Source: a virus. From it: a stretch of 64,000 nt of DNA. A program made the position numbers and the translations under genes. This document shows positions 1 to 54,602 of this stretch, in pieces. Under the pieces are notes generated by a model. That model saw only the letters and a list, made by a program, of their open reading frames with translations, searched no databases and was not told the origin of the DNA. The DNA is taken from the IMG/VR virus record IMGVR_UViG_3300028569_000030, positions 1-64,000 of that record. The stretch is one strand, 5' to 3'. Numbering within the stretch: the stretch's first letter is position 1; each line of letters begins with the position of its first letter.

Positions 1-135
1 GGGGGGGAGGGGGGTGCCCTTTATCTGCTGTAGTTTGGAGAAGTATACCCTCGCTACCAAATAATAGAACATATCTACAATACATCTACAATTCTCAGCT
101 AGTCTCGGGCTACTCTTAGCGCGTACTCGGGCTAT
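1..135. repeat. G-tract plus short phased direct repeats, possible genome end / packaging region
   Basis: GGGGGGGAGGGGGG at 1-14; ATCTACAAT at 73-81 and 84-92; CTCAGCTA at 94, CTCGGGCTA at 104 and 126; function is inference. Confidence 0.4.
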
Positions 136-175
136 GTTATTGAGTTTGCTGGTGTTTGTTAGGATTTTTGATATA

Positions 176-545
176 ACTCTCCAAAGGGAAAGGGTATTTA
201 TCCTGTAAGTCTCCCACAATCCAGAAGACATTCACATTGAGCCTAGTTACCATATAGGCAGGTATCATACAAGGTTCTGGGTTCCTCTATCCTCGTCCCT
301 TAGCTATAAAGGGTATGTCTGGATAGGGCTAACCAGATGAAGCTCCTAAAAGAGCCTAATGGCTCGTTAGGGAGGTGATTTTGCCGAAGCTTTCCTGATA
401 CCTCGGGTTCCCACGTTCTCTTCCTGTTCTAGGTAAATATCCCTAGACTCTGGGATGTGATCTTGTCTTTCTCTTTTGACTATCACACTTGTACGATAAG
501 ACTGGTCCCCTTGCCGCGTTGAAACACTAGTAGGAGCAGCCCATT
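176..545 (-). ncRNA. candidate structured non-coding RNA
   Basis: No ORF of 60 aa or more; six local hairpins plus 8-bp long-range helix 260-267/396-403; lies directly downstream of TTAACAACTTA motif at 550-560 (-); 3' boundary uncertain. Confidence 0.45.
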
Positions 546-560
546 ACTATAAGTTGTTAA
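546..560 (-). promoter_or_regulatory. putative late promoter motif TTAACAACTTA-TAGT
   Basis: exact copy of the repeated intergenic 11-mer. Confidence 0.7.
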
Positions 561-613
561 ATCCTTAAAAAAATACAAATACAAGATGTTAGGTGGAATA
601 CATGTATGGTCGG

Positions 614-976
614 CTAGGACCAGTAAGTGTTAAATCCCGAAGATGATTGAGGTTTCTCTAGGTCTTCTGCTTTACGTTTGCAGGTAGGGCAATCGTAGTA
701 CTTCTTCCTGCCAAAGCCTGTTATAAGCCATGGAGAATTGCATTTGGGACATATAATATCCCTAGGAACATAGTTTTCAGAGCCTTTGGGCATATCGTAA
801 TGGAACTTAAGGTCGGACTCACAGTAGGTTAGGGGAGGAGAAGAGAATCCTGGGTTGTCTATAATTTCAACTACATAAGTCCAGGATTTGTTTAAATATA
901 CGGATTTAGATATCCTAAAAATAATTCCAGAAGATGTTGTAACAGCGTCACCAGCCTTGAATTTGCTTGGAATCAT
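614..976 (-). CDS. hypothetical protein with C-terminal Zn ribbon
   Basis: CPKC...CPTC; tightly packed with neighbouring ORFs. Confidence 0.7.
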   Translation of the reverse strand: MIPSKFKAGDAVTTSSGIIFRISKSVYLNKSWTYVVEIIDNPGFSSPPLTYCESDLKFHYDMPKGSENYVPRDIICPKCNSPWLITGFGRKKYYDCPTCKRKAEDLEKPQSSSGFNTYWS

Positions 977-978
977 GG

Positions 979-1218
979 CTAGGACTCGATTTTAGATATT
1001 GTGTCACTATTTACTTCGGAGGCGGTAATAACGTAGAATTTGAGCCCTACAAGGGCTGGGATTAGGGCTAACAATTTGAAGGTAAAAACTATGGGAGAAA
1101 ATAGTCCAAAAGCCACACAACGACTAATGGAAAAGTACTGGGGAAAGGAGGGTTTTACATAGAAGTAATATGTGATACTACAATACATAGAAACTATAAG
1201 GTAGATAAAAAGGATCAT
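979..1218 (-). CDS. small hypothetical membrane protein
   Basis: two hydrophobic segments; ATGA overlap with upstream ORF. Confidence 0.65.
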   Translation of the reverse strand: MILFIYLIVSMYCSITYYFYVKPSFPQYFSISRCVAFGLFSPIVFTFKLLALIPALVGLKFYVITASEVNSDTISKIES

Positions 1219-1466
1219 AAGTCGGCTTCTTCTAAAATGTCTGGGGCTGTTATTAGGGTTTCAGCCTCCATAAGACCCTTGGCAGATCCTATTTCTAGGA
1301 TAATGCTTTCAGCATATAAGTACATTTCTTTAATGATGCTTTTCTTGGTGGATTCAGGGTCTAGGTAGAACCATACAGGTTTAGCCACAATACCATACAG
1401 GTACTTAGGGGCTTTACTAGGTCTAACAAAAACACAATCTTGCGGAGACATAGTTGTTGGTTTCAT
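1215..1466 (-). CDS. hypothetical protein (probably leaderless)
   Basis: ATG directly follows TTAACAACTTA-TACT; no Shine-Dalgarno. Confidence 0.65.
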   Translation of the reverse strand: MKPTTMSPQDCVFVRPSKAPKYLYGIVAKPVWFYLDPESTKKSIIKEMYLYAESIILEIGSAKGLMEAETLITAPDILEEADL

Positions 1467-1497
1467 AGTATAAGTTGTTAAGTTAACAACTTAAGGT
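1467..1497. promoter_or_regulatory. back-to-back divergent pair of putative late promoters
   Basis: CAT AGTA TAAGTTGTTAA G TTAACAACTTA AGGT ATG: perfect 11-bp inverted repeat, each arm 4 nt from an ATG. Confidence 0.8.
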
Positions 1498-1650
1498 ATG
1501 GAAGATAACACATTTAAATCATTAGGGGCGTTGTTCAAGAAGGTTTACTCAGATGAACCTATTAAAGCAGTAAAACAGCCCAGAGAAAGATCCAGACGAT
1601 TCAGAAGAATCGGGAAGAAGTTAAAGAAAGAAAAAACGAATAATGGCTAG
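1498..1650 (+). CDS. unannotated 50-aa protein: capsid-N-terminus-like segment plus basic tail
   Basis: MEDNTFKSLGALFKKVYSDEPIKAVKQPRERSRRFRRIGKKLKKEKTNNG; 11/16 identities to MCP residues 5-20. Confidence 0.75.
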   Translation: MEDNTFKSLGALFKKVYSDEPIKAVKQPRERSRRFRRIGKKLKKEKTNNG

Positions 1651-1684
1651 GATGCCATTATAAAAATATTAACAGGAGGTTGAT

Positions 1685-2044
1685 ATGGATAAAAAATCCA
1701 TTTTTAGTAATTTAATTTTAGTTCTACTAGTAACTCACATAGTTGCTTCATATTTTGTCCCATTTGACTTTAACAAGCCTGTAATTTCTTTAATTCTAAC
1801 TGCTATGGTGCTATATTTTAAACACCTAGAAAACACACAATTACCTGACATAAGAAAAGAAGTAGAATCCTCTTTAGCCAAGTATGAAAAGTATCTAGTG
1901 GAAATTGAAAATAAATACGAACATAAGATAGCCGAGCTTGAAAAAGGTCAGCAAGACTTATATAAGAATCTAAAAAATGACGTATCTAAATATGAGGCAC
2001 TCCTGACAAAAGCACACCCCACTGGAAAAGTAGTAAGGTTCTAA
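1685..2044 (+). CDS. hypothetical membrane protein with coiled coil
   Basis: strong SD AGGAGG; two N-terminal hydrophobic segments. Confidence 0.75.
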   Translation: MDKKSIFSNLILVLLVTHIVASYFVPFDFNKPVISLILTAMVLYFKHLENTQLPDIRKEVESSLAKYEKYLVEIENKYEHKIAELEKGQQDLYKNLKNDVSKYEALLTKAHPTGKVVRF

Positions 2045-2045
2045 G

Positions 2046-2402
2046 ATGGATAAGAAAGATACAGATATAGCAGGATTAGAAATACAGCTTAAAATATACA
2101 GCAAAAAGATAGCCCAACTCGAAAAAGAAAAAGAAGGACTGCTAGCTGTTATAAAAGATAATGGTTTGGAAGATGAAGTTAACTTTAATGTATCTATATC
2201 TGATGAAGAGTATATCTGCACTAATGAGATTAAAAAACTAAGAGATGCATCAGACATTAGACCATTAGATAAACTGGAAGTCTCTAACTTGGATATAATG
2301 CATAAAATACTCAGAACAATTAGAACTGGAAAAGATCCAGCAAAATCCAAAGCAAAGAAAATGGACGTTGCTGAGTTATTAAAGATAGTAGACAATGAGT
2401 GA
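2046..2402 (+). CDS. hypothetical protein, possible terminase small subunit
   Basis: helical 118-aa ORF overlapping the start of terL; positional inference only. Confidence 0.45.
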   Translation: MDKKDTDIAGLEIQLKIYSKKIAQLEKEKEGLLAVIKDNGLEDEVNFNVSISDEEYICTNEIKKLRDASDIRPLDKLEVSNLDIMHKILRTIRTGKDPAKSKAKKMDVAELLKIVDNE

Positions 2403-3867
2403 TACAGAACTTCCAAAAAAAAAATCAAAGAAACTTACCGTAAGCGAAGCCAAGAGCCGACTTTGGGCAGCAGGAGAACTAGCATCCTGGAAACTAAAGG
2501 GCGTTCAAAAAGCTATTTATAAACAAGCTGCTGATTTTAACGAAACACTAACTTGCATCCTATCGTCTAGACAATTAGGGAAAACTTTTTCTTTACATGT
2601 TCTAGCAGTAGAAACTTGCATTAAAAATCCTGGATGCATAGTAAAATATGCAACTCCTAAACAGAATATGATTAGGAAGATTACTAAAGCAGCAATGAGG
2701 AAGATCCTAGAAGATTGTCCTCAGGAATTGAAACCAGACTTTAACTCGCAAGAAAAGACTTGGGTATTTCCAAATGGATCAGAGATACAACTAGCAGGAA
2801 CAGATTCAGGAAATGCTGAAAACCTTCGAGGAAGTACCGCTATTCTCTGTATCGTAGATGAAGCTGGATTTTGTGATGAATTAGAATATGTTGTCAACTC
2901 CATATTATTTCCAACTACTACAACTACTAATGGTAAGGTAGTTTTAGCATCAACTCCTAACTACCATGACCCATCTCACGATTTTCACGAACATTTTGTT
3001 ATCCCTCTTCTTGCTGAAAACAAAGTATCTAGATTTACAATATATGAATCTCCGTTAGTTACTCCTTCTCAAATAGATAGAATTATTTCTAGATATCCTG
3101 GAGGAGCAGACAACCCAAAATTTAGATGTGAGTACCTATGTGAACTAACTAGAAGTAGTGATTCAATGGTAGTTCCAGAATTTAACACAAAAGAACTAGC
3201 TATTATTACTGACAAAATAGATCTTCCATATACGTATGATGCTTACGTATCCATGGATATAGGATTTAAAGATTTAACTGTTGCATTATTTGCAATATAT
3301 GACTTTAGAAATGCTCAAATCTACATAATGGACGAGCTAGTAATGAATGGACCATCAATGACTACCTCCATATTGGCGAAAAGAATACAAGAAAAAGAAC
3401 AAACTTCCTTTGTTGATATCCAAGGTAATTTCATTGGGACATATATGCGAGTTGCCGATAACGATTTAAAGCTAATAAATGATCTATATATGGAACATGG
3501 GCTACTGTTCTTTCCCACAAAAAAAGATAATAAAGACGCCTCCATAAACAATATGAGAATTTGGGTTCAAGAAGAGAGGATAAAGATTCATCCAAGATGT
3601 AAAACTTTAATATATCACCTAAAAGCAGCTCAATGGAATAAAAATAGAACAGATTTTCTAAGACTTAAAGATAATTTATCAAATGGAACAATGGGAGGAC
3701 ATTGTGATGCTATTCCTGCCCTGTACTATCTACTTAGAAATGTTCAAATTGGGAAGAAACCAGCAGATTATATAGGAGATTCTAGATATTCGCTGCTTTC
3801 TGGAAGCACACACAGCTCTTTATCTAATAATATTAAGCAGTTAAGTAACATATTCAAGAGAAAATAG
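2395..3867 (+). CDS. terL: terminase large subunit
   Basis: Walker A-like SRQLGKT, Walker B IVDEAG, motif III ASTP, nuclease SMDIG...HCD. Confidence 0.93.
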   Translation: MSDTELPKKKSKKLTVSEAKSRLWAAGELASWKLKGVQKAIYKQAADFNETLTCILSSRQLGKTFSLHVLAVETCIKNPGCIVKYATPKQNMIRKITKAAMRKILEDCPQELKPDFNSQEKTWVFPNGSEIQLAGTDSGNAENLRGSTAILCIVDEAGFCDELEYVVNSILFPTTTTTNGKVVLASTPNYHDPSHDFHEHFVIPLLAENKVSRFTIYESPLVTPSQIDRIISRYPGGADNPKFRCEYLCELTRSSDSMVVPEFNTKELAIITDKIDLPYTYDAYVSMDIGFKDLTVALFAIYDFRNAQIYIMDELVMNGPSMTTSILAKRIQEKEQTSFVDIQGNFIGTYMRVADNDLKLINDLYMEHGLLFFPTKKDNKDASINNMRIWVQEERIKIHPRCKTLIYHLKAAQWNKNRTDFLRLKDNLSNGTMGGHCDAIPALYYLLRNVQIGKKPADYIGDSRYSLLSGSTHSSLSNNIKQLSNIFKRK

Positions 3868-3926: not shown

Positions 3927-6005
3927 ATGTCAAAAAAATATTTTGCAGCAGATGAAGCTTCGGAATGCGTCTCTTATTTACAAAGCAAAGCTAATAAATG
4001 GGCTAGTTATGGAGTAAATAATGGGTATGTTGAGTTAATTAAGAGATCTTGGAGGACTTATCATGGATTTACTAAGGATTCCAATCATCAAATCTCTTTT
4101 GATGGTGAGCAGGGAGAGCTTTTAAAAATAAATGTCAATCATTTTTATAACATAGCTGAACACATCTTAGTAATGATCACATCTAATAGACCTAAGTTCC
4201 AAGCACGAGCAATAAATACAGATAAAAAATCACTTGTTCAAGCACAACTAGCGAATGGCCTACTCGATTACTATATGAGAGAAAAAAGGCTAGAAAGAGA
4301 AATAAAAAGAGCAGTTAGATACGCTATTACTATGGGATCTGGTTATATTAAGATGGAATGGAATAGTACTAAGGGAGAAATATATGATTATATCGAACCT
4401 AGTAAAGATTCTATTGATTCTTATAATGAAGACGGTGAACCAGTAGATAAAAACGGAAGAGTTTTAAAAAATATACCCATTCATCAAGGAGATATTGACT
4501 TTAGAGCCTTATCTTTTTTTGATGTAGTGTTTGATTCTACTAAAGAGACTCCAGAACTTCATGATTGGGTAATTACCAGGACTATGGTTAATAAATACGA
4601 CCTTGCGGAAAAATATCCAGAAATGGCAGAAAAGATAATAAATTCAAAGGGATTAGATAGTCAAACTTCTTCTTTATTTACACTAAATCAATTTGATGAA
4701 ACTACTGACATACCAGTGTATGAGTTTTTTCATAATAAAACAGAGGCAGTACCTGACGGTAGGCATATGTTATACTTAGATGATGAAGTTATTTTAGATG
4801 ATAGCATATTAGAATATAAAGAGATTCCTGTTTATAGGATTGCAGCAAATGAAATCTTAGGAACATCTTTTGGATTTTCTCCTATGTTTAACTTAATAGA
4901 GTTGCAAGAGTATTTAGATATGCTCTACTCTATTGTTCTTACAAACCAACACGCATTTGGTATTCAAAACGTACTAAGTCCTTTAGGTGCTGATATAAAA
5001 TATACGCAATTAGCTGGAGGAATGAATTTTATTGAATATAATCCACAATTTGGTAAACCAGAATCTCTTAACTTAACACAAACACCTGCTGAAATATTCA
5101 CAACAATTCAATATATAGAAAAAGCAATGGAGACTATAAGTGCTGTAAACTCTACAGTAAGAGGAAATCCAGAAAACCAATTAAGATCTGGAAACTCTTT
5201 AGCTCTGATGGCGTCACAAGCTCTTCAATTTATGTCCGGATTACAACAGTCTTATATTCAGTTATTAGAAGATGTTGGAACTGGCGTTGTTAATCTATTA
5301 AAAGACTTTGCAGCAGCACCTCGTATCGCAGCAATCGTAGGATTAAGAAACTCTACAAACTTAATCACTTTTAAATCAGAAGATTTGTCTGGAATTAATA
5401 GAGTAGTTGTTGATGTTGGTAACGCTTTAATGTCTACACATGCAGGACGATCTCAAGTTGCTGAGAACCTATTACAAGCTGGATTGATTAAGACTTCTGA
5501 TAAGTACGTTCAACTTTTACAGACAGGAAATTTGGATGTTCTACTAGAGAACGAGATGGATGAAATAAATCTAATTAGGGGAGAGAACGAATCTATTGTT
5601 AAAGGTGATATGGAAGTAAGAGCGTTGTCATATGATAACCACGTTCTTCATATTCAAGAACATAGAGCTGTTTTAGCTGATGCTCAGATTAGACAAGATT
5701 TAGAATTAGTAACTAGATGCGATGCTCATATTAATGAACACTTACAATTAGTAAAAAATCTAGACCCAGATTTAGCTCAGATTATTGGCCAACCAGTATT
5801 CCAAAAACCACAACCTCCAATGCCTCCAGAAGCTGATATTCCACCAGATGGATCAGGTATCCCTGAACTACAGGCTAATCCAGAAGCTCAGTCATTAAAT
5901 CCAACTGATCAAATGGAAAGCGTCCCAGCAGTGCCTAGACCAGCAGGAAATCCAGAAGCTCCCATGACACCAGAAGAATTGTTCAATAAAAATGCCGTTG
6001 AGTAG
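3927..6005 (+). CDS. portal protein (podovirus/P22-like)
   Basis: 692 aa after terL; A-I-T-M-G-S-G-Y-I-K portal-type segment; Pro-rich C-terminal tail. Confidence 0.85.
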   Translation: MSKKYFAADEASECVSYLQSKANKWASYGVNNGYVELIKRSWRTYHGFTKDSNHQISFDGEQGELLKINVNHFYNIAEHILVMITSNRPKFQARAINTDKKSLVQAQLANGLLDYYMREKRLEREIKRAVRYAITMGSGYIKMEWNSTKGEIYDYIEPSKDSIDSYNEDGEPVDKNGRVLKNIPIHQGDIDFRALSFFDVVFDSTKETPELHDWVITRTMVNKYDLAEKYPEMAEKIINSKGLDSQTSSLFTLNQFDETTDIPVYEFFHNKTEAVPDGRHMLYLDDEVILDDSILEYKEIPVYRIAANEILGTSFGFSPMFNLIELQEYLDMLYSIVLTNQHAFGIQNVLSPLGADIKYTQLAGGMNFIEYNPQFGKPESLNLTQTPAEIFTTIQYIEKAMETISAVNSTVRGNPENQLRSGNSLALMASQALQFMSGLQQSYIQLLEDVGTGVVNLLKDFAAAPRIAAIVGLRNSTNLITFKSEDLSGINRVVVDVGNALMSTHAGRSQVAENLLQAGLIKTSDKYVQLLQTGNLDVLLENEMDEINLIRGENESIVKGDMEVRALSYDNHVLHIQEHRAVLADAQIRQDLELVTRCDAHINEHLQLVKNLDPDLAQIIGQPVFQKPQPPMPPEADIPPDGSGIPELQANPEAQSLNPTDQMESVPAVPRPAGNPEAPMTPEELFNKNAVE

Positions 6006-47910: not shown

Positions 47911-50900
47911 TTAATGAGCGTCTTTTAAGTTAGTTCCTATAACTGCTGGAGCTTTTAGTGCGATAGATAGTCTGTAGTTGTTTTCCATAATGTCTTGAAC
48001 AATCTGTCTACATTCTTCTGCCTTAGATTTAGGAGCATCTATAACCAATTGATCGTGGATATTTAAAATAACTAATGCATCTATACTTCTTTTTTTGAAC
48101 TCTCTATTAATCTGTATTGCTGCCATATTTACTATGCTAGCAGCCAGTCCTTGTATTTGTACGTTCTTAGCGTTATTTAGCCCGTTTTTGTAATCTTTGT
48201 ACCATCCCTCAACTATCTCTGGCTCATACTTTTTCTTTAGTGCATTTTTGTATTTATAATCTAGAAGCTTATCACCATGTATCCTATACAATTCTTTAAC
48301 TGCTGGAAGATGTCGTATTCTTCCTGTTTCTATTTTTATATATCCATTGGCTTTAACAAAATACTCTGATTTTTTCATCCATTCTTTTAGCTTAGGAAAT
48401 CCATTTAAGTAACCATTGATAAGAACCTGGGCTTCTTCTGTAGTTACGTTTAGAGTTTTACCTAGAGCATACGCGCCCATTCCATACGGGACCCCAAGAC
48501 TGTAAGCTTTTGAAAACGATCTTTTTGGTTTATTTACTTTTCCTAAATAATTAGGGGCGTTTTTATCAGCACTAACATCTTTTAATTTTTCCGTGGCTAT
48601 AGCAATTGTAGAATAAAAGTCATATCCTTTTCTAAAAATATCTCGTAGCCCTTCGTCTCCAGAAACGTGAGAAAAGCAATTATGAACTCTTATGTTATCG
48701 CATATAAACTCTTCTACTCCGTCTACCGTAATATCTACCATGTCTCGCTGTTCTTTTTTATTTACTTCCAAAACTATAGCATCTGGAGATTTTAACTTTC
48801 CAATTTTTGATTTTGTAAATATTTTTTTTCTTTCACAAGCAATAAAATTGTATAACTTATAATCTACTAGCTTATTAATACTAATAGCTGTAAATCTAAT
48901 TTGGTACACTTTATGAACACCTTTGTGAGCTTTACCTATTCTGCCATCTAGTCCTAGAGTATTACCTAAACTACAAATGTCAGATGCTAATTTTGCAGAT
49001 TTAGTTGATATAGATAACTCACTCTTTTTTTGATTAAAAGTTCCGTCGGTATCTATAAGTCCCGCTAAAAAAGACAGTCTATTAGCTATACTAGATGTCA
49101 TTATATAATCTGGTATATGAAATTTTTTACTCCTATCATCCATCATATCAAAAGTTTGTTTAAATATATCCACCAACCAAGAATCATGGCATACGCAGGA
49201 CTCCATTCCATAGGTTCTACGATCCAAGTAGTCTTTTGGTTTTGCCCCAAAAGATTCCATTATTTCTTTAAATTTAGTAGTAACCATATCAGCTTTTAGT
49301 CCGCATATGCCTACATACTTAGAGGTTGTCGTACATGCAACTCCGTCTCCCAAAAAAGCACCAAGCATCCAACATAATTCTGCAGATAGTGGTAAATATG
49401 AGAACGGTTTATTTGCTCCCTTTAGATATACATTTAGTTTATTGGAATTATTTTGAATTACATTAGTGTTAAATTTACACTCTTCTAGAATGTCTCCTGC
49501 AACAATGTCCTCCGCTTTTTTCCAACCAGTTCCATTTACATAAATTTTATGGTCGGGAGAGCATCTCACTACTCCTTTTTTAGTAATTATTTCTAGCATG
49601 TCTTTTTTTGAATTCCACTTATTAACCAGTTTCTTCCAACCATGAACAGTATTAATATAGTCTCCTACTTCTACTTTAGATATTTCTAAAATTCCTTTAT
49701 CTTTTATTTCTACTTTTGAATCTATACATACACAATGAGGCTCTAAAGCTTCATAGTCATTATCTATAAACACTCGTCCTTCATCAGCTATAAAAAATTC
49801 CCTAATTACATTATTATACTTTAGAACAATCTCATCCAACTCTCCAGTTTCTTTTGGTCTAGGTAATTGTTGCAAGTTAGAAGAGTATCTACCGGAGATA
49901 GTTCTGTGTTGCTGAAAGTTAGGATAAAAGTATCCATTCTCTGATTCATCTAAAAACCTATCAATATAGGTGCCTTTTATCTTTATTAATGAATTATAGT
50001 TACTTAGGTCTCCGGCCCATTTAATGTTTAATACTTTAAACAAATGATCTATCATATCATCATTAAATTGGGCATTACCTTTATCCGTAGTACTTAGTGG
50101 CTTAATTTTCATACACTTAAATACTAAGTCTGCCATTTGTTTTTTAGAGAATATATTTATCCTATTAGTTCCATCTTTTTCGGATAATCTCTGCGCTATT
50201 TCTAGATGATGATTATGCTCTAAGTCTACGTTATTGATAAAATAGTCTCTAACTATATCAGTTTCTATAAGTAATATAGATTTTTCAGTTAGTGAGTACT
50301 TTCCATTCTTAGTTTTTGTAAGGTATTTTCCACAATCAAAGTACTCAATAACTTCCTGAGAAAAAGACCCAGATCTTGTTTGTGGGTAATCTACAATAAG
50401 ATTTTCATTTTTCCAATTTCTAACATCTTCGTTTGATTCTATAGCTGTAACTATTCTATCTTCTAGCATTGCTAGATCGCTCTCAATATTCGCTTTCGTT
50501 TTTAAAATAAGCGGTATGTCTAACTTTATTGAGTTATTTTCCATAGGAATAGTCACTTCTTTATATAGAGGCATAACTTCCTTGTCATAGAAAAATTCTT
50601 CTAGTTTATCCTTAGATAGACGATCTCTAACTAGGATAGCTAGTCTTAGCGTTAAATCAGCATCAGATGCAGCATACTTTCCCATTACTTCTAAATCAGC
50701 TTTATACATTTCATAATTTGTTTTAGTTATGCTACCGCCATTCATTTTTATATTATGCTTAAGTTCTATTTGCTCCTCATTAGCATCCGATTCTACATCT
50801 AATCCTATTTTTGATTGGTATTGCTTGGCAACTTCTTTCAAAGCAAAATTACCCTCTTCCTCTACAGTGTGTTTCATTAACATAATATCGGCAAGCAACG

Positions 50901-51249
50901 AGTCTATCAAATCAACTTTTAAATCATTTTTAACAATGCTTATATCGTAAGCAGCGTTCCACATTAACAATTCTTTTTTAGATAAAAGATGCAGAAGCTC
51001 TAATATGTCCGAATCAGGAAGAACTTGCTCTAGCTTTTCTGTTTCTTTATTCCAAGAAAATCTAGGGGCATAAAATGATTCTCCAGGACTTCCGCAAAAA
51101 GAAATACCAATAACCTGAGACTTTCTTACATTTAGTCCAGTAGTCTCTGTATCAAATCCTAAGAATAGACTTTTTTCTATGTGAAGTTTTGCTTGTGTTA
51201 ACTGTGCTTGTGTGGTGATTATAGTGTAGTTTTTATTAGTATGTGTCAT
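47911..51249 (-). CDS. polA: family A DNA polymerase (3'-5' exo + pol) with intein
   Basis: FDTETTGL, SGRYSS, DYEALEPH, YGMG, IQG.AA, IHDQ. Confidence 0.95.
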   Translation of the reverse strand: MTHTNKNYTIITTQAQLTQAKLHIEKSLFLGFDTETTGLNVRKSQVIGISFCGSPGESFYAPRFSWNKETEKLEQVLPDSDILELLHLLSKKELLMWNAAYDISIVKNDLKVDLIDSLLADIMLMKHTVEEEGNFALKEVAKQYQSKIGLDVESDANEEQIELKHNIKMNGGSITKTNYEMYKADLEVMGKYAASDADLTLRLAILVRDRLSKDKLEEFFYDKEVMPLYKEVTIPMENNSIKLDIPLILKTKANIESDLAMLEDRIVTAIESNEDVRNWKNENLIVDYPQTRSGSFSQEVIEYFDCGKYLTKTKNGKYSLTEKSILLIETDIVRDYFINNVDLEHNHHLEIAQRLSEKDGTNRINIFSKKQMADLVFKCMKIKPLSTTDKGNAQFNDDMIDHLFKVLNIKWAGDLSNYNSLIKIKGTYIDRFLDESENGYFYPNFQQHRTISGRYSSNLQQLPRPKETGELDEIVLKYNNVIREFFIADEGRVFIDNDYEALEPHCVCIDSKVEIKDKGILEISKVEVGDYINTVHGWKKLVNKWNSKKDMLEIITKKGVVRCSPDHKIYVNGTGWKKAEDIVAGDILEECKFNTNVIQNNSNKLNVYLKGANKPFSYLPLSAELCWMLGAFLGDGVACTTTSKYVGICGLKADMVTTKFKEIMESFGAKPKDYLDRRTYGMESCVCHDSWLVDIFKQTFDMMDDRSKKFHIPDYIMTSSIANRLSFLAGLIDTDGTFNQKKSELSISTKSAKLASDICSLGNTLGLDGRIGKAHKGVHKVYQIRFTAISINKLVDYKLYNFIACERKKIFTKSKIGKLKSPDAIVLEVNKKEQRDMVDITVDGVEEFICDNIRVHNCFSHVSGDEGLRDIFRKGYDFYSTIAIATEKLKDVSADKNAPNYLGKVNKPKRSFSKAYSLGVPYGMGAYALGKTLNVTTEEAQVLINGYLNGFPKLKEWMKKSEYFVKANGYIKIETGRIRHLPAVKELYRIHGDKLLDYKYKNALKKKYEPEIVEGWYKDYKNGLNNAKNVQIQGLAASIVNMAAIQINREFKKRSIDALVILNIHDQLVIDAPKSKAEECRQIVQDIMENNYRLSIALKAPAVIGTNLKDAH
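48679..49734 (-). mobile_element. LAGLIDADG intein (352 aa) in DNA polymerase
   Basis: EPH|CVCIDS...IRVHN|CFS; LGAFLGDG and FLAGLIDTDG. Confidence 0.92.
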
Positions 51250-51542: not shown

Positions 51543-54500
51543 TTAGAATGAGCTGTCGTCTTCCATTTTTGCACGATTCTTCGAATCTCGCAAGTCTTTT
51601 AATTCCGATGCTTCAATAGCTTCTAGCGGCCTAATAGTTCCAGTTAGTCCATCCCAAGCTAAATCGCAAGAAAACAAAGCTCCACTTCTATTTTTTACAC
51701 AATCAATAGAAAAGTATCTGTCATTTTCTGGAGTTCTTGAGCTGTATCCTGGCCTATGTACAGTTAACATAGCAGTTAAAGCTTGTGCTATAGACGAACT
51801 ACCTTTAGCGGCATTATAAGACGTTATTGGCTCGTCAATAGATCCTAGAGCTTTAGACGGCTGTAACATAACAACTACGGCTTTATTAAGATTAATAGCT
51901 ATTTCTCGCAGTCCTTGAATAGCCTCCATGCTAGATTGAGTAGGGTCAGAAAATCTAGACTGTACTAGCTCTAAATAGTCAACTATGACTAATCTGATGT
52001 TAACTCCTAGCATCTTTTCTCTTTCGATAATTGTGTTCTTTATTTCTTCAATTGTTTGCCCTGTTTTAAACACAAAGCTGCACTTTTGATAATTATCTTT
52101 TAGAATAGTTCTGAACTGATCTTTCTTTTGCTCATCTCTATTTTTGAAGAATTCGTACAAAGAATTTCTATTTAGTCTAGTGTGTCTTTGTATTAATTTT
52201 TGATATACATCAAACTGGGACATATCATAACTAAAGAACATGCTATGTTCGCCCATTTTAGAGGTATTATTTATCATAGTAATAGCGGTAGAAGTATTAT
52301 GCGTTACTGTAAAGTCTCCCAATAAGTACCTATGATTTCCATCTAACTCAAACCCAAAGTAATCTCCTACTTCTAATTTTTCTACCTCTATTTCAGTTAA
52401 ATCCTGGTATCTTTGTCTGTCTTGCGCTAAGGCTTTTTTTCTACTCACTCTATTAGGTATGTCGTTTAAATTATCTCCGCTAATGTACAGTCTAAACGCT
52501 TCTGAGTACCCTTCGTACCATTTTCCCCTAGTAAAAGATTTATAGTGTTTCATTTCTCTTGATTTAGTGGCTTTAAATCCTAAACTGCGTATTAAAAACA
52601 AAACCTGATCTGTCGTTTTTTCATTAGATTGGGAAAATTCATACGTTCCTTTTTTATGGTCATAGTATCCATCAGTATCTAATAGACCAGCCAACAACTT
52701 AAGCCTGTCTTCTCTATTAGAAGTAAGATATTCGTTAGGAATATATTTTCCATTCATTAGATTTTTTTGTTTTAAAAAAGTTCTAAAAATGTTATTTTCC
52801 CCAGTTATAGAAATAGTATACACCTTATCTGATCCCGATTCATACTGCTTTAAATTAGCTTTTAGGTTTTTAGAATCTGCCCATCCTTGAATATCTTCAA
52901 TTAGCTCTACATCTTGCTTTGCTATAGTAAACTGTGGTTTACTAGTTGTGCCATCTCCTATCCATACACCTAAGATGTACGGATCTATTTCTAAATGTTT
53001 TTTAGAAAACTCTACTGGAACTTTATATCCCTTTACTCTTTTTTTAAAATCTACACCCTTATTTAAGTATTCCAATAACGGAATGTCAAAAACCTGGCCA
53101 TATTTATACTGATCTTTTGTAGCACTACTTCCTTTAAGACTTAGTATGTGGCTTTCATTAATAACGTAATCATCTCCGTTTTTTTGGTTAATTTTATACA
53201 AAGTTTCTCGTCCTCTAGCTAACGATAAAACTGTTCTAGGAGAAGAGTCATCCCCCATTAATAAATCACCAACACAAACGTCTTCTACGTTTTTTATAGT
53301 TCCATCAAACATTAAAATTTTAGTGCCTTTTCCATGGCACTTGCCCGAGCCAGGGCTCCCTAAAATTCCATATAATCTTCCTACTTGAACTTGCAATTTT
53401 TCATCTAATTGAGGTATTCCAAACTTTAGAGTGTTCTTATCAATGTCTTCCGCATACGATATAAAAGAATCAAATCCTTCGTTAATAGTAACTACTTCTT
53501 TTGAGCTGGTAGCTTTAATGGATTCTGGAATCAATATACTTAATGATTTTAGTAATGGATCATCAGCAGTTGAATAAGTCCCACCTAGCCAATTTGGCCC
53601 AAATACTTGGGATATAATATTATTATATATAAGTTCTTTCGAAAACTTATCAGATCCTGTTCTTTTTGATTGCAGCTCAGCAGCGGCTTTTAAAAAATGA
53701 TATGTGTGAGTTTCGTTAAACCCTTGATTCTTTAGTGTACTAGCCAATATCATCAATGCGTGATTTCTAATGCCACTCTCAAAATAGCCTAAAGAAATTA
53801 AGTATTTTTCAGGAGTAAAGAATTTTGGCTTTATTGACCAATCTACTTCTGATAAATCTAAGCTTAGTGGAACTTTATTTTTCATAGTCTTAACTATTGT
53901 TGGGGTTTTATTCTTTAGTTCTACAATCCGTTCTGGTAGATTTACAACTTCCCATGCGTCTTTTATATCAGAATACTCAAAAGTAGTTTTAGCTAGTTCC
54001 ATAATTCCATCTATAGTAAAGTCCGTTAGTTCTGAAATAGATAAAGGAATTTTGTATAGTCCAGACTTTTGGTGCTTAGTTAACGGTAGTCTTAGTATCC
54101 TAGTTGCATTGTATATTACAGGGTCAGCAGTAGTAAGTCCCTCAGCTAGGCTCATACAAATATTTTTTAATTGATTTGGAGTTAATTGTTGGTCTAGGAT
54201 TTCTACTGAAATATCGAATCCTTTATTCCCACTAAAAAAAATTCGTATGCTACTAGCAGGAAATCCAGAGTCTATTAGTCTGTTAACTAAAGATATTGCG
54301 TCTTTTTGAGCTAATCCTAAGTCATCTTCTGAATCAAAATCCCATACTAATTTTTTACAAACAACGTCAGTTATTCCAGCCACGCTACCTTTGTCTTTAA
54401 AAATGGCTTTATGGGAGTCGTTAAACTGATATATAGATACGTAGGCTTCCTTATCTAAAGAAATTCTGTTATATATATCAGACAAATCTCCGTCATTAAA

Positions 54501-54557
54501 TGGAACTAATGTGCCTTTATCGGCTAAACTAGTGCATAATCTAACATAATCAGTCAT
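51543..54557 (-). CDS. AEP-type primase fused to DnaB-like SF4 helicase, with intein
   Basis: WDFDSED, SGNKG, RILRLP.T.H.KSGLYK; GSPGSGK|T, VIVDYL, KNRSG; start near 54557-54560 after GGAGG. Confidence 0.9.
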   Translation of the reverse strand: MTDYVRLCTSLADKGTLVPFNDGDLSDIYNRISLDKEAYVSIYQFNDSHKAIFKDKGSVAGITDVVCKKLVWDFDSEDDLGLAQKDAISLVNRLIDSGFPASSIRIFFSGNKGFDISVEILDQQLTPNQLKNICMSLAEGLTTADPVIYNATRILRLPLTKHQKSGLYKIPLSISELTDFTIDGIMELAKTTFEYSDIKDAWEVVNLPERIVELKNKTPTIVKTMKNKVPLSLDLSEVDWSIKPKFFTPEKYLISLGYFESGIRNHALMILASTLKNQGFNETHTYHFLKAAAELQSKRTGSDKFSKELIYNNIISQVFGPNWLGGTYSTADDPLLKSLSILIPESIKATSSKEVVTINEGFDSFISYAEDIDKNTLKFGIPQLDEKLQVQVGRLYGILGSPGSGKCHGKGTKILMFDGTIKNVEDVCVGDLLMGDDSSPRTVLSLARGRETLYKINQKNGDDYVINESHILSLKGSSATKDQYKYGQVFDIPLLEYLNKGVDFKKRVKGYKVPVEFSKKHLEIDPYILGVWIGDGTTSKPQFTIAKQDVELIEDIQGWADSKNLKANLKQYESGSDKVYTISITGENNIFRTFLKQKNLMNGKYIPNEYLTSNREDRLKLLAGLLDTDGYYDHKKGTYEFSQSNEKTTDQVLFLIRSLGFKATKSREMKHYKSFTRGKWYEGYSEAFRLYISGDNLNDIPNRVSRKKALAQDRQRYQDLTEIEVEKLEVGDYFGFELDGNHRYLLGDFTVTHNTSTAITMINNTSKMGEHSMFFSYDMSQFDVYQKLIQRHTRLNRNSLYEFFKNRDEQKKDQFRTILKDNYQKCSFVFKTGQTIEEIKNTIIEREKMLGVNIRLVIVDYLELVQSRFSDPTQSSMEAIQGLREIAINLNKAVVVMLQPSKALGSIDEPITSYNAAKGSSSIAQALTAMLTVHRPGYSSRTPENDRYFSIDCVKNRSGALFSCDLAWDGLTGTIRPLEAIEASELKDLRDSKNRAKMEDDSSF
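52296..53339 (-). mobile_element. LAGLIDADG intein (348 aa) in helicase Walker A
   Basis: GSGK|CHGKGT...VTHN|TST; LGVWIGDG and LLAGLLDTDG. Confidence 0.93.
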
Positions 54558-54571
54558 CACATCATCCTCCA

Positions 54572-54602
54572 AAATAAAGGCAGGATTGAAAATCAATCCT
54601 GC
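54572..54602 (-). terminator. terminator-like hairpin upstream of primase-helicase
   Basis: GCAGGATTGA-3 nt-TCAATCCTGC followed on - strand by CTTTATTT. Confidence 0.65.

What the first reader, a model, noticed from the sequence alone, without database searches (positions are those of the whole stretch)
176..545. Candidate ~370-nt structured ncRNA driven by the late promoter motif near the genome end
Seen: no long ORF; GC-rich for this genome (33/60 G+C at 361-420); hairpins 241-259, 297-313, 318-337, 343-374 (nested GAGCC/GGCTC), 428-447, 456-487; long-range helix AGGTATCA 260-267 / TGATACCT 396-403 closing a multibranch junction; GGGTTCC repeated at 279 and 405; motif copy at 550-560 points into it and the first ATG gives only 5 codons. 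Inference: a late RNA (packaging-RNA-like, protein sponge or new structured class), possibly a partner for the basic peptide at 1498. It could instead be a structured ssDNA origin.
Basis: partly seen in the sequence, partly recalled or inferred. Interest (0 to 1): 0.7.

Follow-up and report, generated by a model that had tools for sequence, protein, structure and literature searches.

The report
New structured RNA in lake phage
The GC-rich, gene-free stretch at 176-545 is a real, roughly 350-nt folded RNA gene on the minus strand of an uncultured lake phage; three distant relatives carry the same fold with compensating base changes, it matches no catalogued RNA family, and its job is unknown.

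Summary
The observation largely holds. Window 176-545 has no credible ORF. Its G+C is 46% against 34% for the genome, the second highest of 427 windows, with 30% G+C flanks. A phage-specific promoter-like motif at 547-560 on the minus strand points into it.

Thermodynamics alone is weak. The decisive evidence is comparative. A covariance model built from the window's own minus-strand core (260-500) found homologues in three related phage contigs (L096, L028, L092; terminase 45-50% identical), each in a non-coding gap about 1.9 kb upstream of the terminase gene.

On the structural alignment, 97% of pair cells are standard pairs (76% when shuffled, 31-45% when slid). 29 of 71 pairs change on both sides. 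The conserved parts are:
- a closing helix (263-273 with 488-498);
- a hairpin with an invariant CAGAG/ACA internal loop (422-455);
- an AGAGAA junction strand;
- further hairpins.

The "genome end" is an assembly cut. In the relatives the RNA follows a sigma70-like promoter and sits directly before the late operon. Here it is inverted and uses the phage motif, which argues for a stand-alone RNA gene.

Rfam 15 has no match and the function is unknown. There is no support for a packaging-RNA role or for a peptide partner.

The parts
547..560 (-). Phage-specific promoter-like motif TTAACAACTTATAG. The predicted start is at or next to G547.
   Evidence: There are eight oriented intergenic copies in this genome. 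The same motif (TTTAACAACTATAG) sits at syntenic late-gene positions in relatives. Its role as a promoter is inferred, not shown.
200..547 (-). Predicted extent of the RNA, about 350 nt. The ends are inferred from the G+C island, the motif and the length of the relatives' element.
   Evidence: G+C island with sharp flanks; alignment with the 350-nt elements of the relatives.
260..500 (-). Core multi-helix junction domain, the part with comparative support.
   Evidence: Models R1 and R2 match L096, L028 and L092 over their full length.
488..498 (-). P1, 5' strand (UAUCGUACAAG). It pairs with 263-273.
   Evidence: 11 bp. 6 of 11 pairs change on both sides across the four sequences, with one broken cell.
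263..273 (-). P1, 3' strand (CUUGUAUGAUA).
456..487 (-). P1a hairpin. Its length varies among homologues.
   Evidence: All 6 pairs of the closing stem change on both sides (helix 2).
422..455 (-). P2 hairpin: outer pairs 453-455/422-424, invariant internal loop CAGAG (448-452) / ACA (425-427), and stem 442-447/428-433.
   Evidence: This is the most conserved part. The stem covaries (UCUAGG/CCUAGA, UUUGCG/CGCAAG, CCUAGG/CCUAGG) and the outer C-G becomes G-C in L092.
416..421 (-). Conserved purine junction strand AGAGAA.
   Evidence: It reads AGAGAA in this genome, L096 and L028, and GAGGAAG in L092.
372..420 (-). P3 arm (418-420/372-374, 411-414/375-378, 400-406/384-390). The distal hairpin is specific to this genome.
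   Evidence: Helices 6 and 7 covary. Helix 8 is present only here.
345..371 (-).
   Evidence: Helix 9 has 7 of 10 pairs changed on both sides. L096 versus L028 shows two adjacent compensatory pairs (CCU/AGG to CUC/GAG).
276..337 (-). P5, a three-way branch specific to this genome. L096 and L028 have a simple hairpin here and L092 has none.
   Evidence: High pair probabilities in the single-sequence fold. No comparative information (helices 10-12).
201..259 (-). 3' hairpins (255-259/241-245; 232-236/204-208 with 222-229/209-216). The AAUGUCU...GGGA segment is shared with relatives.
   Evidence: The alignment of this part is poor, so homology is tentative.

Best explanation
Window ~200-547, minus strand, is a gene for a structured non-coding RNA of about 350 nt. 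It belongs to a small, previously uncatalogued family found in a group of ~80-kb aquatic phages.

Shown:
- The sequence is non-coding and is a sharp G+C island.
- It has homologues in three related phage contigs.
- A multi-helix junction (P1, P1a, P2, P3, P4) is kept through compensatory changes.
- The pairing is specific to this strand.

Inferred:
- Transcription starts at the phage motif TTAACAACTTATAG (547-560).
- The RNA acts as a free-standing molecule in trans, because the gene has been inverted, moved and given a different promoter type relative to its homologues while its fold was kept.
- The invariant unpaired nucleotides (internal loop CAGAG/ACA, junction AGAGAA) are the likely site of a tertiary fold or of protein binding.

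I commit to a protein-binding or scaffold RNA made during infection. Its partner and its effect are unknown.
For: 1. No ORF and no protein relative. The stop-free frames give no PHROG hit. The longest frame (58 aa) gives only one repeat-driven weak hit among 1.84 billion proteins. tblastx against 80 related loci finds nothing.
2. G+C is 0.459, second of 427 windows, with 0.30 flanks. The other covariation-supported RNA of this genome (~75,060-75,380) is 0.449.
3. Model R1, built from this window alone, hit L096 at 35 bits (E 5e-8) and L028 at 28 bits (E 1e-5) over the full model. All hits lie in non-coding gaps about 1.9 kb upstream of the terminase gene. Model R2 (this genome plus L096) then found L092 full length at 37.6 bits, E 1e-8. 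nhmmer independently links L096 and L092 at E 2e-4.
4. Pair counts on alignment A8: 97.4% of cells are paired, against 75.7% shuffled (0 of 500 shuffles reach it) and 31-45% slid. 29 of 71 pairs change on both sides. A hand table of P1, P2 and P4 agrees.
5. L096 versus L028 (87-91% identical in the flanking genes): of 6 changes at paired positions of the P1-P1' core, 5 keep the pair. Two of these are adjacent double compensations.
6. The minus strand folds better than the plus strand (z -2.67 against -0.41) and its helices are well defined.
7. A same-strand promoter-like element precedes the element in all four genomes: the phage motif here, and TTGTCA-17-TACAAT with an extended -10 in the relatives.
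Against: - There are only four sequences from three lineages, and alignment A8 was fitted to a structure derived from this window, so the counts lean towards that structure.
- One P1 pair is broken in L028 (C-G to A-A).
- The 5' and 3' thirds of the RNA (501-547 and 200-259) have no clear comparative support.
- P5 and the distal part of P3 exist only in this genome.
- No intrinsic terminator marks the 3' end.
- Closer relatives (58-61% terminase identity) lack a detectable copy, so the RNA is dispensable or replaceable within the group.
- Nothing tested here speaks to trans action or to a protein partner.
Confidence: 0.7

Rival explanations
1. It is a cis-acting leader rather than a free RNA. 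The structured element sits at the head of a long transcription unit and modifies the polymerase or controls read-through, as in processive antitermination or attenuation.
For: In L028, L096 and L092 the element lies between a sigma70-like promoter and the first late gene, on the same strand, only about 90 nt before the start codon. In this genome it also points towards a long co-directional array: the minus-strand genes that begin at G000 78,455, about 700 nt downstream. No terminator follows the element in any genome.
Against: Here it precedes a different gene arm than in the relatives. It is separated from that arm by about 700 nt that hold a head-on sigma54-like site and a G-run. The late operon of the relatives has its own motif copy between the RNA and the first gene. 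Known antitermination RNAs are much smaller.
Confidence: 0.2
2. It is a DNA-level element (replication origin, packaging site or protein-binding array), and the transcript, if any, is incidental.
For: It lies in a 1.2-kb non-coding region with direct repeats (CTCGGGCTA x2, ATCTACAAT x2, GGCAATAGCATA x3), an AT-rich patch at 136-175, the minimum of cumulative GC skew, and a conserved G-run. In T7, promoters without genes lie next to origins and genome ends (own knowledge).
Against: The repeats and the AT-rich patch lie outside 176-545. A five-way junction kept by compensatory changes, with about 8% G-U cells that are mismatches on the complementary strand, fits RNA and not duplex DNA. The homologues sit far from the G-run, for example about 5 kb away in L028.
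Confidence: 0.05
3. It is a decayed or frameshifted small gene, or foreign junk DNA without function. A 58-codon stop-free frame (543-370) starts 1 nt off the ATG at 544.
For: The ATG follows the motif at the spacing seen for leaderless genes at 1466, 1498 and 12361. The G+C by codon position in that frame is 0.55/0.52/0.38.
Against: No relative among 1.84 billion proteins apart from a repeat artefact. No PHROG hit. The homologues conserve helices rather than a reading frame. L096 and L028 are about 93% identical over the RNA (309 nt), against 87% and 91% in the flanking genes.
Confidence: 0.04

Closest known systems
Large phage-associated structured RNAs of unknown or recently emerging function (ROOL, GOLLD; Rfam)
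   Same: Ornate multi-helix RNAs of hundreds of nucleotides, carried by phages, recognised by covariation and not tied to an obvious neighbouring gene.
   Different: No Rfam model matches at E up to 10. This RNA is smaller (about 350 nt) and has a different architecture. The family is tiny (four sequences) and confined to one phage group.
phi29 packaging RNA (pRNA)
   Same: A phage-encoded structured RNA with its own promoter, located upstream of the packaging genes.
   Different: No match to the Rfam pRNA model. This is a terminase-type packaging phage and not a protein-primed phi29-like phage. Loop-loop pairing between copies was not examined. Any role in packaging is untested.
Lambda 6S leader (pR'-tR') and HK022 put RNAs
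   Same: In L028, L096 and L092 the RNA lies between a host-type promoter and the late operon, like a leader that governs late read-through.
   Different: This RNA is much larger and branched. No terminator follows it. In this genome it is uncoupled from the late operon and inverted.
The second RNA family of this phage group (starts GGACCGUNAAAAAAUGG; this genome's copy at G000 ~75,060-75,380)
   Same: Same phage group, similar size and G+C. It also follows either the phage motif (in the relatives) or a sigma70-type promoter (in this genome), and it is supported by covariation.
   Different: The sequence and helices are unrelated. The hallmark GACCGU motif is absent from 176-545. The two families coexist in this genome.

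Membership tests
Any Rfam 15 family | Match to a curated covariance model | tested here: not met
   cmscan at E up to 10 on window 1-3000 gave only noise, with best E 0.11 outside the region. L002, eight related loci at gathering score, and L096 plus L092 gave no relevant match.
phi29 pRNA | Rfam pRNA model: a three-way junction with loops that pair between copies | tested here: not met
   No hit in the Rfam scan. Pairing between copies was not tested.
phi29 pRNA | Binds the portal and is needed for DNA packaging | not testable with these tools
   Needs prohead RNA extraction or a packaging assay.
tRNA / tmRNA | Cloverleaf or tmRNA model | tested here: not met
   ARAGORN finds none in the window, L002 or L083.
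GGACCGU-type RNA family of the same phage group | 5' motif GGACCGUNAAAAA pairing with AGCGG, plus an outer helix | tested here: not met
   The motif occurs once in the genome, at 75,068, and not in 176-545. blastn and nhmmer show no similarity.
New family defined here (this genome, L096, L028, L092) | P2 hairpin with the internal loop CAGAG/ACA, followed by a purine strand AGAGAA | tested here: met
   Window 416-455, minus strand. It is identical in L096 and L028 and is a variant in L092.
New family defined here (this genome, L096, L028, L092) | P1 helix (core UAC/GUA) closing a junction that holds P1a, P2, P3 and P4 | tested here: met
   263-273/488-498. The full-length model matches all four sequences. 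6 of 11 P1 pairs change on both sides.
New family defined here (this genome, L096, L028, L092) | Non-coding gap about 1.9 kb upstream of the terminase gene, with a same-strand promoter | tested here: met
   Distance to the terminase start is 1.9-2.1 kb in all four. The orientation relative to the terminase gene is reversed in this genome.
Cis antitermination / leader RNA | Acts only on the transcript that carries it, so downstream read-through depends on it | not testable with these tools
   Needs transcript mapping and deletion analysis.

The most novel reading that the evidence does not exclude
The RNA is the founding member of a new functional class: a phage RNA that folds into a compact junction and either reprograms a polymerase (host or phage) or is catalytic. 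It would be interchangeable between early and late expression, and it would be functionally replaced in sister phages by the unrelated GGACCGU-type RNA at the analogous position behind divergent promoters.
Probability: 0.15. Interest if true: 0.8.

Novelty: new variant of a known kind. Interest (0 to 1): 0.55.

Why it matters
Few phage-encoded structured RNAs have a known function, and most known large RNA classes were first noticed in the same way as this one. This RNA is about 350 nt, sits behind a defined promoter, and has a defined conserved core (CAGAG/ACA loop, AGAGAA strand, five-helix junction). That core can be synthesised, probed and used as bait.

The RNA occurs in a phage group that also carries a second, unrelated structured RNA. 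The same RNA gene is driven by a host-type promoter in some members and by the phage-specific motif in another. This gives a natural handle on when and why the RNA is needed.

For annotation, the result shows that G+C islands in AT-rich phage genomes are worth screening with single-sequence covariance models even when BLAST finds nothing.

Tried and rejected
- BLASTN (distant mode) of window 1-1500 against 50,697 phage records: no match.
- blastn, nhmmer and tblastx of the region against 80 and then 160 related loci: only the 13-nt motif and two sub-threshold hits appeared. Those two later proved real (L028, L096).
- Exact 21-22-mers from the region in IMG/VR: none.
- P2-motif patterns in IMG/VR: only L028's contig, the rest being chance. 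In 185,579 prokaryote genomes: none.
- A search with the protein downstream of the RNA in L028, L096 and L092 found only L028's contig.
- The scan's own notes, searched by sequence: nothing.
One genome search failed. A model search with filters off failed.
- Sequencing runs: no RNA holder is listed. The runs with small shares (X3-X5) covered only short pieces outside 176-545 or nothing, and gave no variants.
- MAFFT alignments misplace the long-range strands, so a model-based alignment and a hand table were used instead.
- A possible pairing between the P2 loop and a 3' tail (AUUUA/UAAAU) is seen in this genome, L096 and L028. It is not compensated in L092 and is AU-rich, so I do not claim it.
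- No complementarity of 12 nt or more between the RNA and the rest of the genome.
- T7-type RNA polymerase (PF00940) and sigma70 region 2 were not found in the genome. The PF00940 search had no positive control. Large ORFs without Pfam hits remain.

Full report
**Context.** The window is the first 64 kb of a 79,099-bp virus contig from lake water. The genes include:
- a large terminase at 2395-3867 and a portal at 3927-6005, followed by structural genes on the plus strand up to about 41 kb;
- replication genes on the minus strand, among them a family A DNA polymerase and a DnaB-like helicase, both with inteins, and an RNA ligase.

The two contig ends repeat 134 nt at 99% identity. A 17.8-kb contig of run X1 covers window 1-1600 without a difference and continues 4.6 kb upstream; X1 may be the source sample. 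The 'genome end' is therefore an assembly cut inside a G-run. The region of interest lies in one continuous non-coding stretch of about 1.2 kb (G000 ~78,456-78,965 plus window 1-613) between minus-strand genes.

**The observation.**
- No ORF above 43 aa lies inside 176-545.
- G+C is 0.459 against a genome mean of 0.343 (sd 0.034), second of 427 windows. The flanks at 136-175 and 546-613 are 0.30 and 0.29.
- The motif TTAACAACTTATA occurs at 548-560 on the minus strand. The other copies are all intergenic and point at genes.
- Folding energy is only suggestive. The minus strand gives -115.4 kcal/mol with z = -2.67; the plus strand gives z = -0.41.
- After regression on G+C over the whole genome, the minus strand ranks 10th of 854 windows. 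That is comparable to the capsid intron region and to the other RNA candidate.
- Scans with 150-nt windows show nothing beyond what 62 tests would give by chance.
- Minus-strand helices have high pair probabilities and include 13 G-U pairs.

**Finding relatives.** Sequence searches failed at first. Terminase homologues gave 160 related loci from IMG/VR and metagenomes at 38-61% identity.

A covariance model built from the window alone (R1: 260-500 minus strand with its predicted structure) matched, over its full length:
- L096:869-1061 at 35 bits, E 5e-8;
- L028:6102-6354 at 28 bits (the same contig as L098 and L168);
- locally, L092:1807-1838.

A second model from this genome plus L096 (R2) matched L092:1728-1896 over its full length at 37.6 bits, E about 1e-8. 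It also re-aligned L028 in register with L096. nhmmer independently links L096 and L092 at E 2e-4. All matches lie in non-coding gaps 1.9-2.0 kb upstream of the terminase gene, the same distance as here. The neighbouring small minus-strand genes of L092 and L028 are 40% identical, so that locus is syntenic.

**The fold.** The shared architecture is as follows.
- P1 closes the junction (here 488-498 with 263-273; core UAC/GUA).
- P1a is a hairpin of variable length (456-487).
- P2 (422-455) has the invariant internal loop CAGAG/ACA, followed by the strand AGAGAA (416-421).
- P3 and P4 (345-371) follow.
- P5 is a variable arm. Here it is a three-way branch at 276-337; in L096 and L028 it is a simple hairpin; in L092 it is absent.
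- 3' hairpins complete the RNA.

On the model-based alignment A8, 97.4% of 191 pair cells are standard pairs. The figure is 75.7% after shuffling partners (0 of 500 shuffles reach the observed value) and 31-45% with partners slid by 1-3 columns. 29 of 71 pairs change on both sides. Changes on both sides, per helix:

| Helix | Pairs changed on both sides |
|---|---|
| P1 | 6 of 11 |
| P1a closing stem | 6 of 6 |
| P2 | 5 of 9 |
| P3 base | 4 of 7 |
| P4 | 7 of 10 |

A hand-made table for P1, P2 and P4 gives the same picture. It shows one broken cell, C-G to A-A in L028.

The close pair L096 and L028 is informative. They are 87-91% identical in the flanking genes and about 93% over the RNA. Of six changes at paired positions of the core, five keep the pair, including two adjacent double compensations in P4 (CCU/AGG to CUC/GAG).

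Caveats: there are only three lineages, the alignment was fitted to a structure derived from this window, and the outer thirds of the RNA are not supported. Segment 396-403 belongs to a hairpin found only in this genome.

**Strand and promoters.** About 8% of pair cells are G-U, which would be A-C mismatches on the other strand. This fits the better folding of the minus strand.

In L096 a sigma70-like promoter, TTGTCA-17-TACAAT with an extended -10, points into the RNA. It stands back to back with a leftward promoter for the minus-strand genes. L028 and L092 have the same arrangement. A copy of the phage motif follows the RNA, just before the first late gene.

In this genome the RNA is inverted relative to the terminase gene. 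It lies at the far end of a short block of minus-strand genes and follows the phage motif itself. The motif (TTTAACAACTATAG in the relatives) is conserved at syntenic positions before late genes in many relatives. It resembles the -8 to +1 part of T7-group promoters (own knowledge). No T7-type polymerase or sigma factor was detected.

**What it is not.**
- No Rfam family matches.
- No tRNA or tmRNA is present.
- There is no protein-coding remnant.
- It is not a member of the group's other RNA family.
- It is not repeated elsewhere in the genome and has no evident antisense target.
- The P2 motif occurs in no other IMG/VR contig and in none of 185,579 prokaryote genomes.

**Mechanism.** The fold has been kept through inversion, relocation and a change of promoter type, and it is independent of the neighbouring genes. 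I therefore favour a free-standing, trans-acting RNA whose invariant unpaired nucleotides form a tertiary core or a protein-binding site (confidence about 0.7 for 'structured RNA gene'; the trans-acting scaffold part is inference). A cis-acting leader at the head of a long operon is the main rival (0.2). A DNA element (0.05) and a decayed gene (0.04) are unlikely.

**Novelty.** This is a new, small RNA family within the known kind 'phage-encoded structured RNAs of unknown function'.

Noticed in passing
G000 ~75,060-75,380 (+), outside the window; L004:2270-2580, L007:2212-2492, L009:2614-2890, L014:1437-1718, L015:910-1232, L016:819-1085, L050:9482-9755: A second, unrelated structured RNA family starting GGACCGUNAAAAAAUGG. 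In the relatives it follows the phage motif TTTAACAACTATAG; in this genome it follows a sigma70-like promoter. RNAalifold finds an outer helix with 3-4 double changes per pair, plus ACCGU/AGCGG pairing. Not in Rfam. G+C is 0.449.
   Followed up: partly
G000 78,946-78,961 then window 1-14; L004:3628, L007:3426, L009:3944-4040, L014:2718-2790, L015:2311, L023:1980-2140, L028:952-1150, L061-L063, L067, L070, L071, L080: Sequences that fit the sigma54 -24/-12 consensus exactly (TGGCAY-N5-TTGCA) are conserved across the phage group. They are often in clusters on both strands and arranged as palindromes, and the last one is followed by a G-run. In distant relatives plus-strand genes follow directly. 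They could be promoters, protein-binding sites or a packaging signal. This contig was cut in the G-run.
   Followed up: partly
window 560, 1481 (-); 1483, 3882, 7423, 12346, 26920, 33090 (+); many loci: The motif TTAACAACT(T)ATAG is conserved at syntenic late-gene positions in relatives with 38-61% identical terminases. In those relatives nearly all copies lie on the late-gene strand. It resembles the ACTATAG core of T7-group promoters, yet no single-subunit RNA polymerase or sigma factor was detected.
   Followed up: partly
window 1-135 and G000 78,966-79,099: The contig ends repeat 134 nt and differ only in the lengths of the G-runs. A Logan contig runs through the junction. IMG/VR's label 'linear' is therefore an assembly artefact, and the map is circular or terminally redundant.
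   Followed up: yes
L096:763-813: Back-to-back sigma70-like promoters share a palindromic -35 (TTGTCAA/TTGACAA). One points into the RNA and one into the minus-strand genes.
   Followed up: no
window 47911-51249 (-), 51543-54596 (-); relatives P0022, P0038, P0049: Inteins with LAGLIDADG homing endonuclease domains interrupt the DNA polymerase and the DnaB-like helicase. Several relatives have terminases of about 845 aa with LAGLIDADG or intein domains.
   Followed up: no
window 370-544 (-): A 58-codon stop-free frame begins 1 nt off the ATG that follows the motif. It has no protein relatives. It is probably chance, but a one-base error in the GGG run at 540-542 would create a 59-aa leaderless ORF.
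   Followed up: yes
G000 78,477-78,512; window 72-92, 104-134: Short direct repeats lie in the non-coding region outside the RNA: GGCAATAGCATA x3 in tandem, ATCTACAAT x2 and CTCGGGCTA x2 (with a third, imperfect copy at G000 ~78,799). They could be iterons or protein-binding sites.
   Followed up: no
window 614-976 (-): The 120-aa protein next to the RNA has a CxxC...CxxC zinc ribbon. It hits a Lar-like restriction alleviation PHROG weakly (E 1e-4) and DUF5817 below the cut-off.
   Followed up: no
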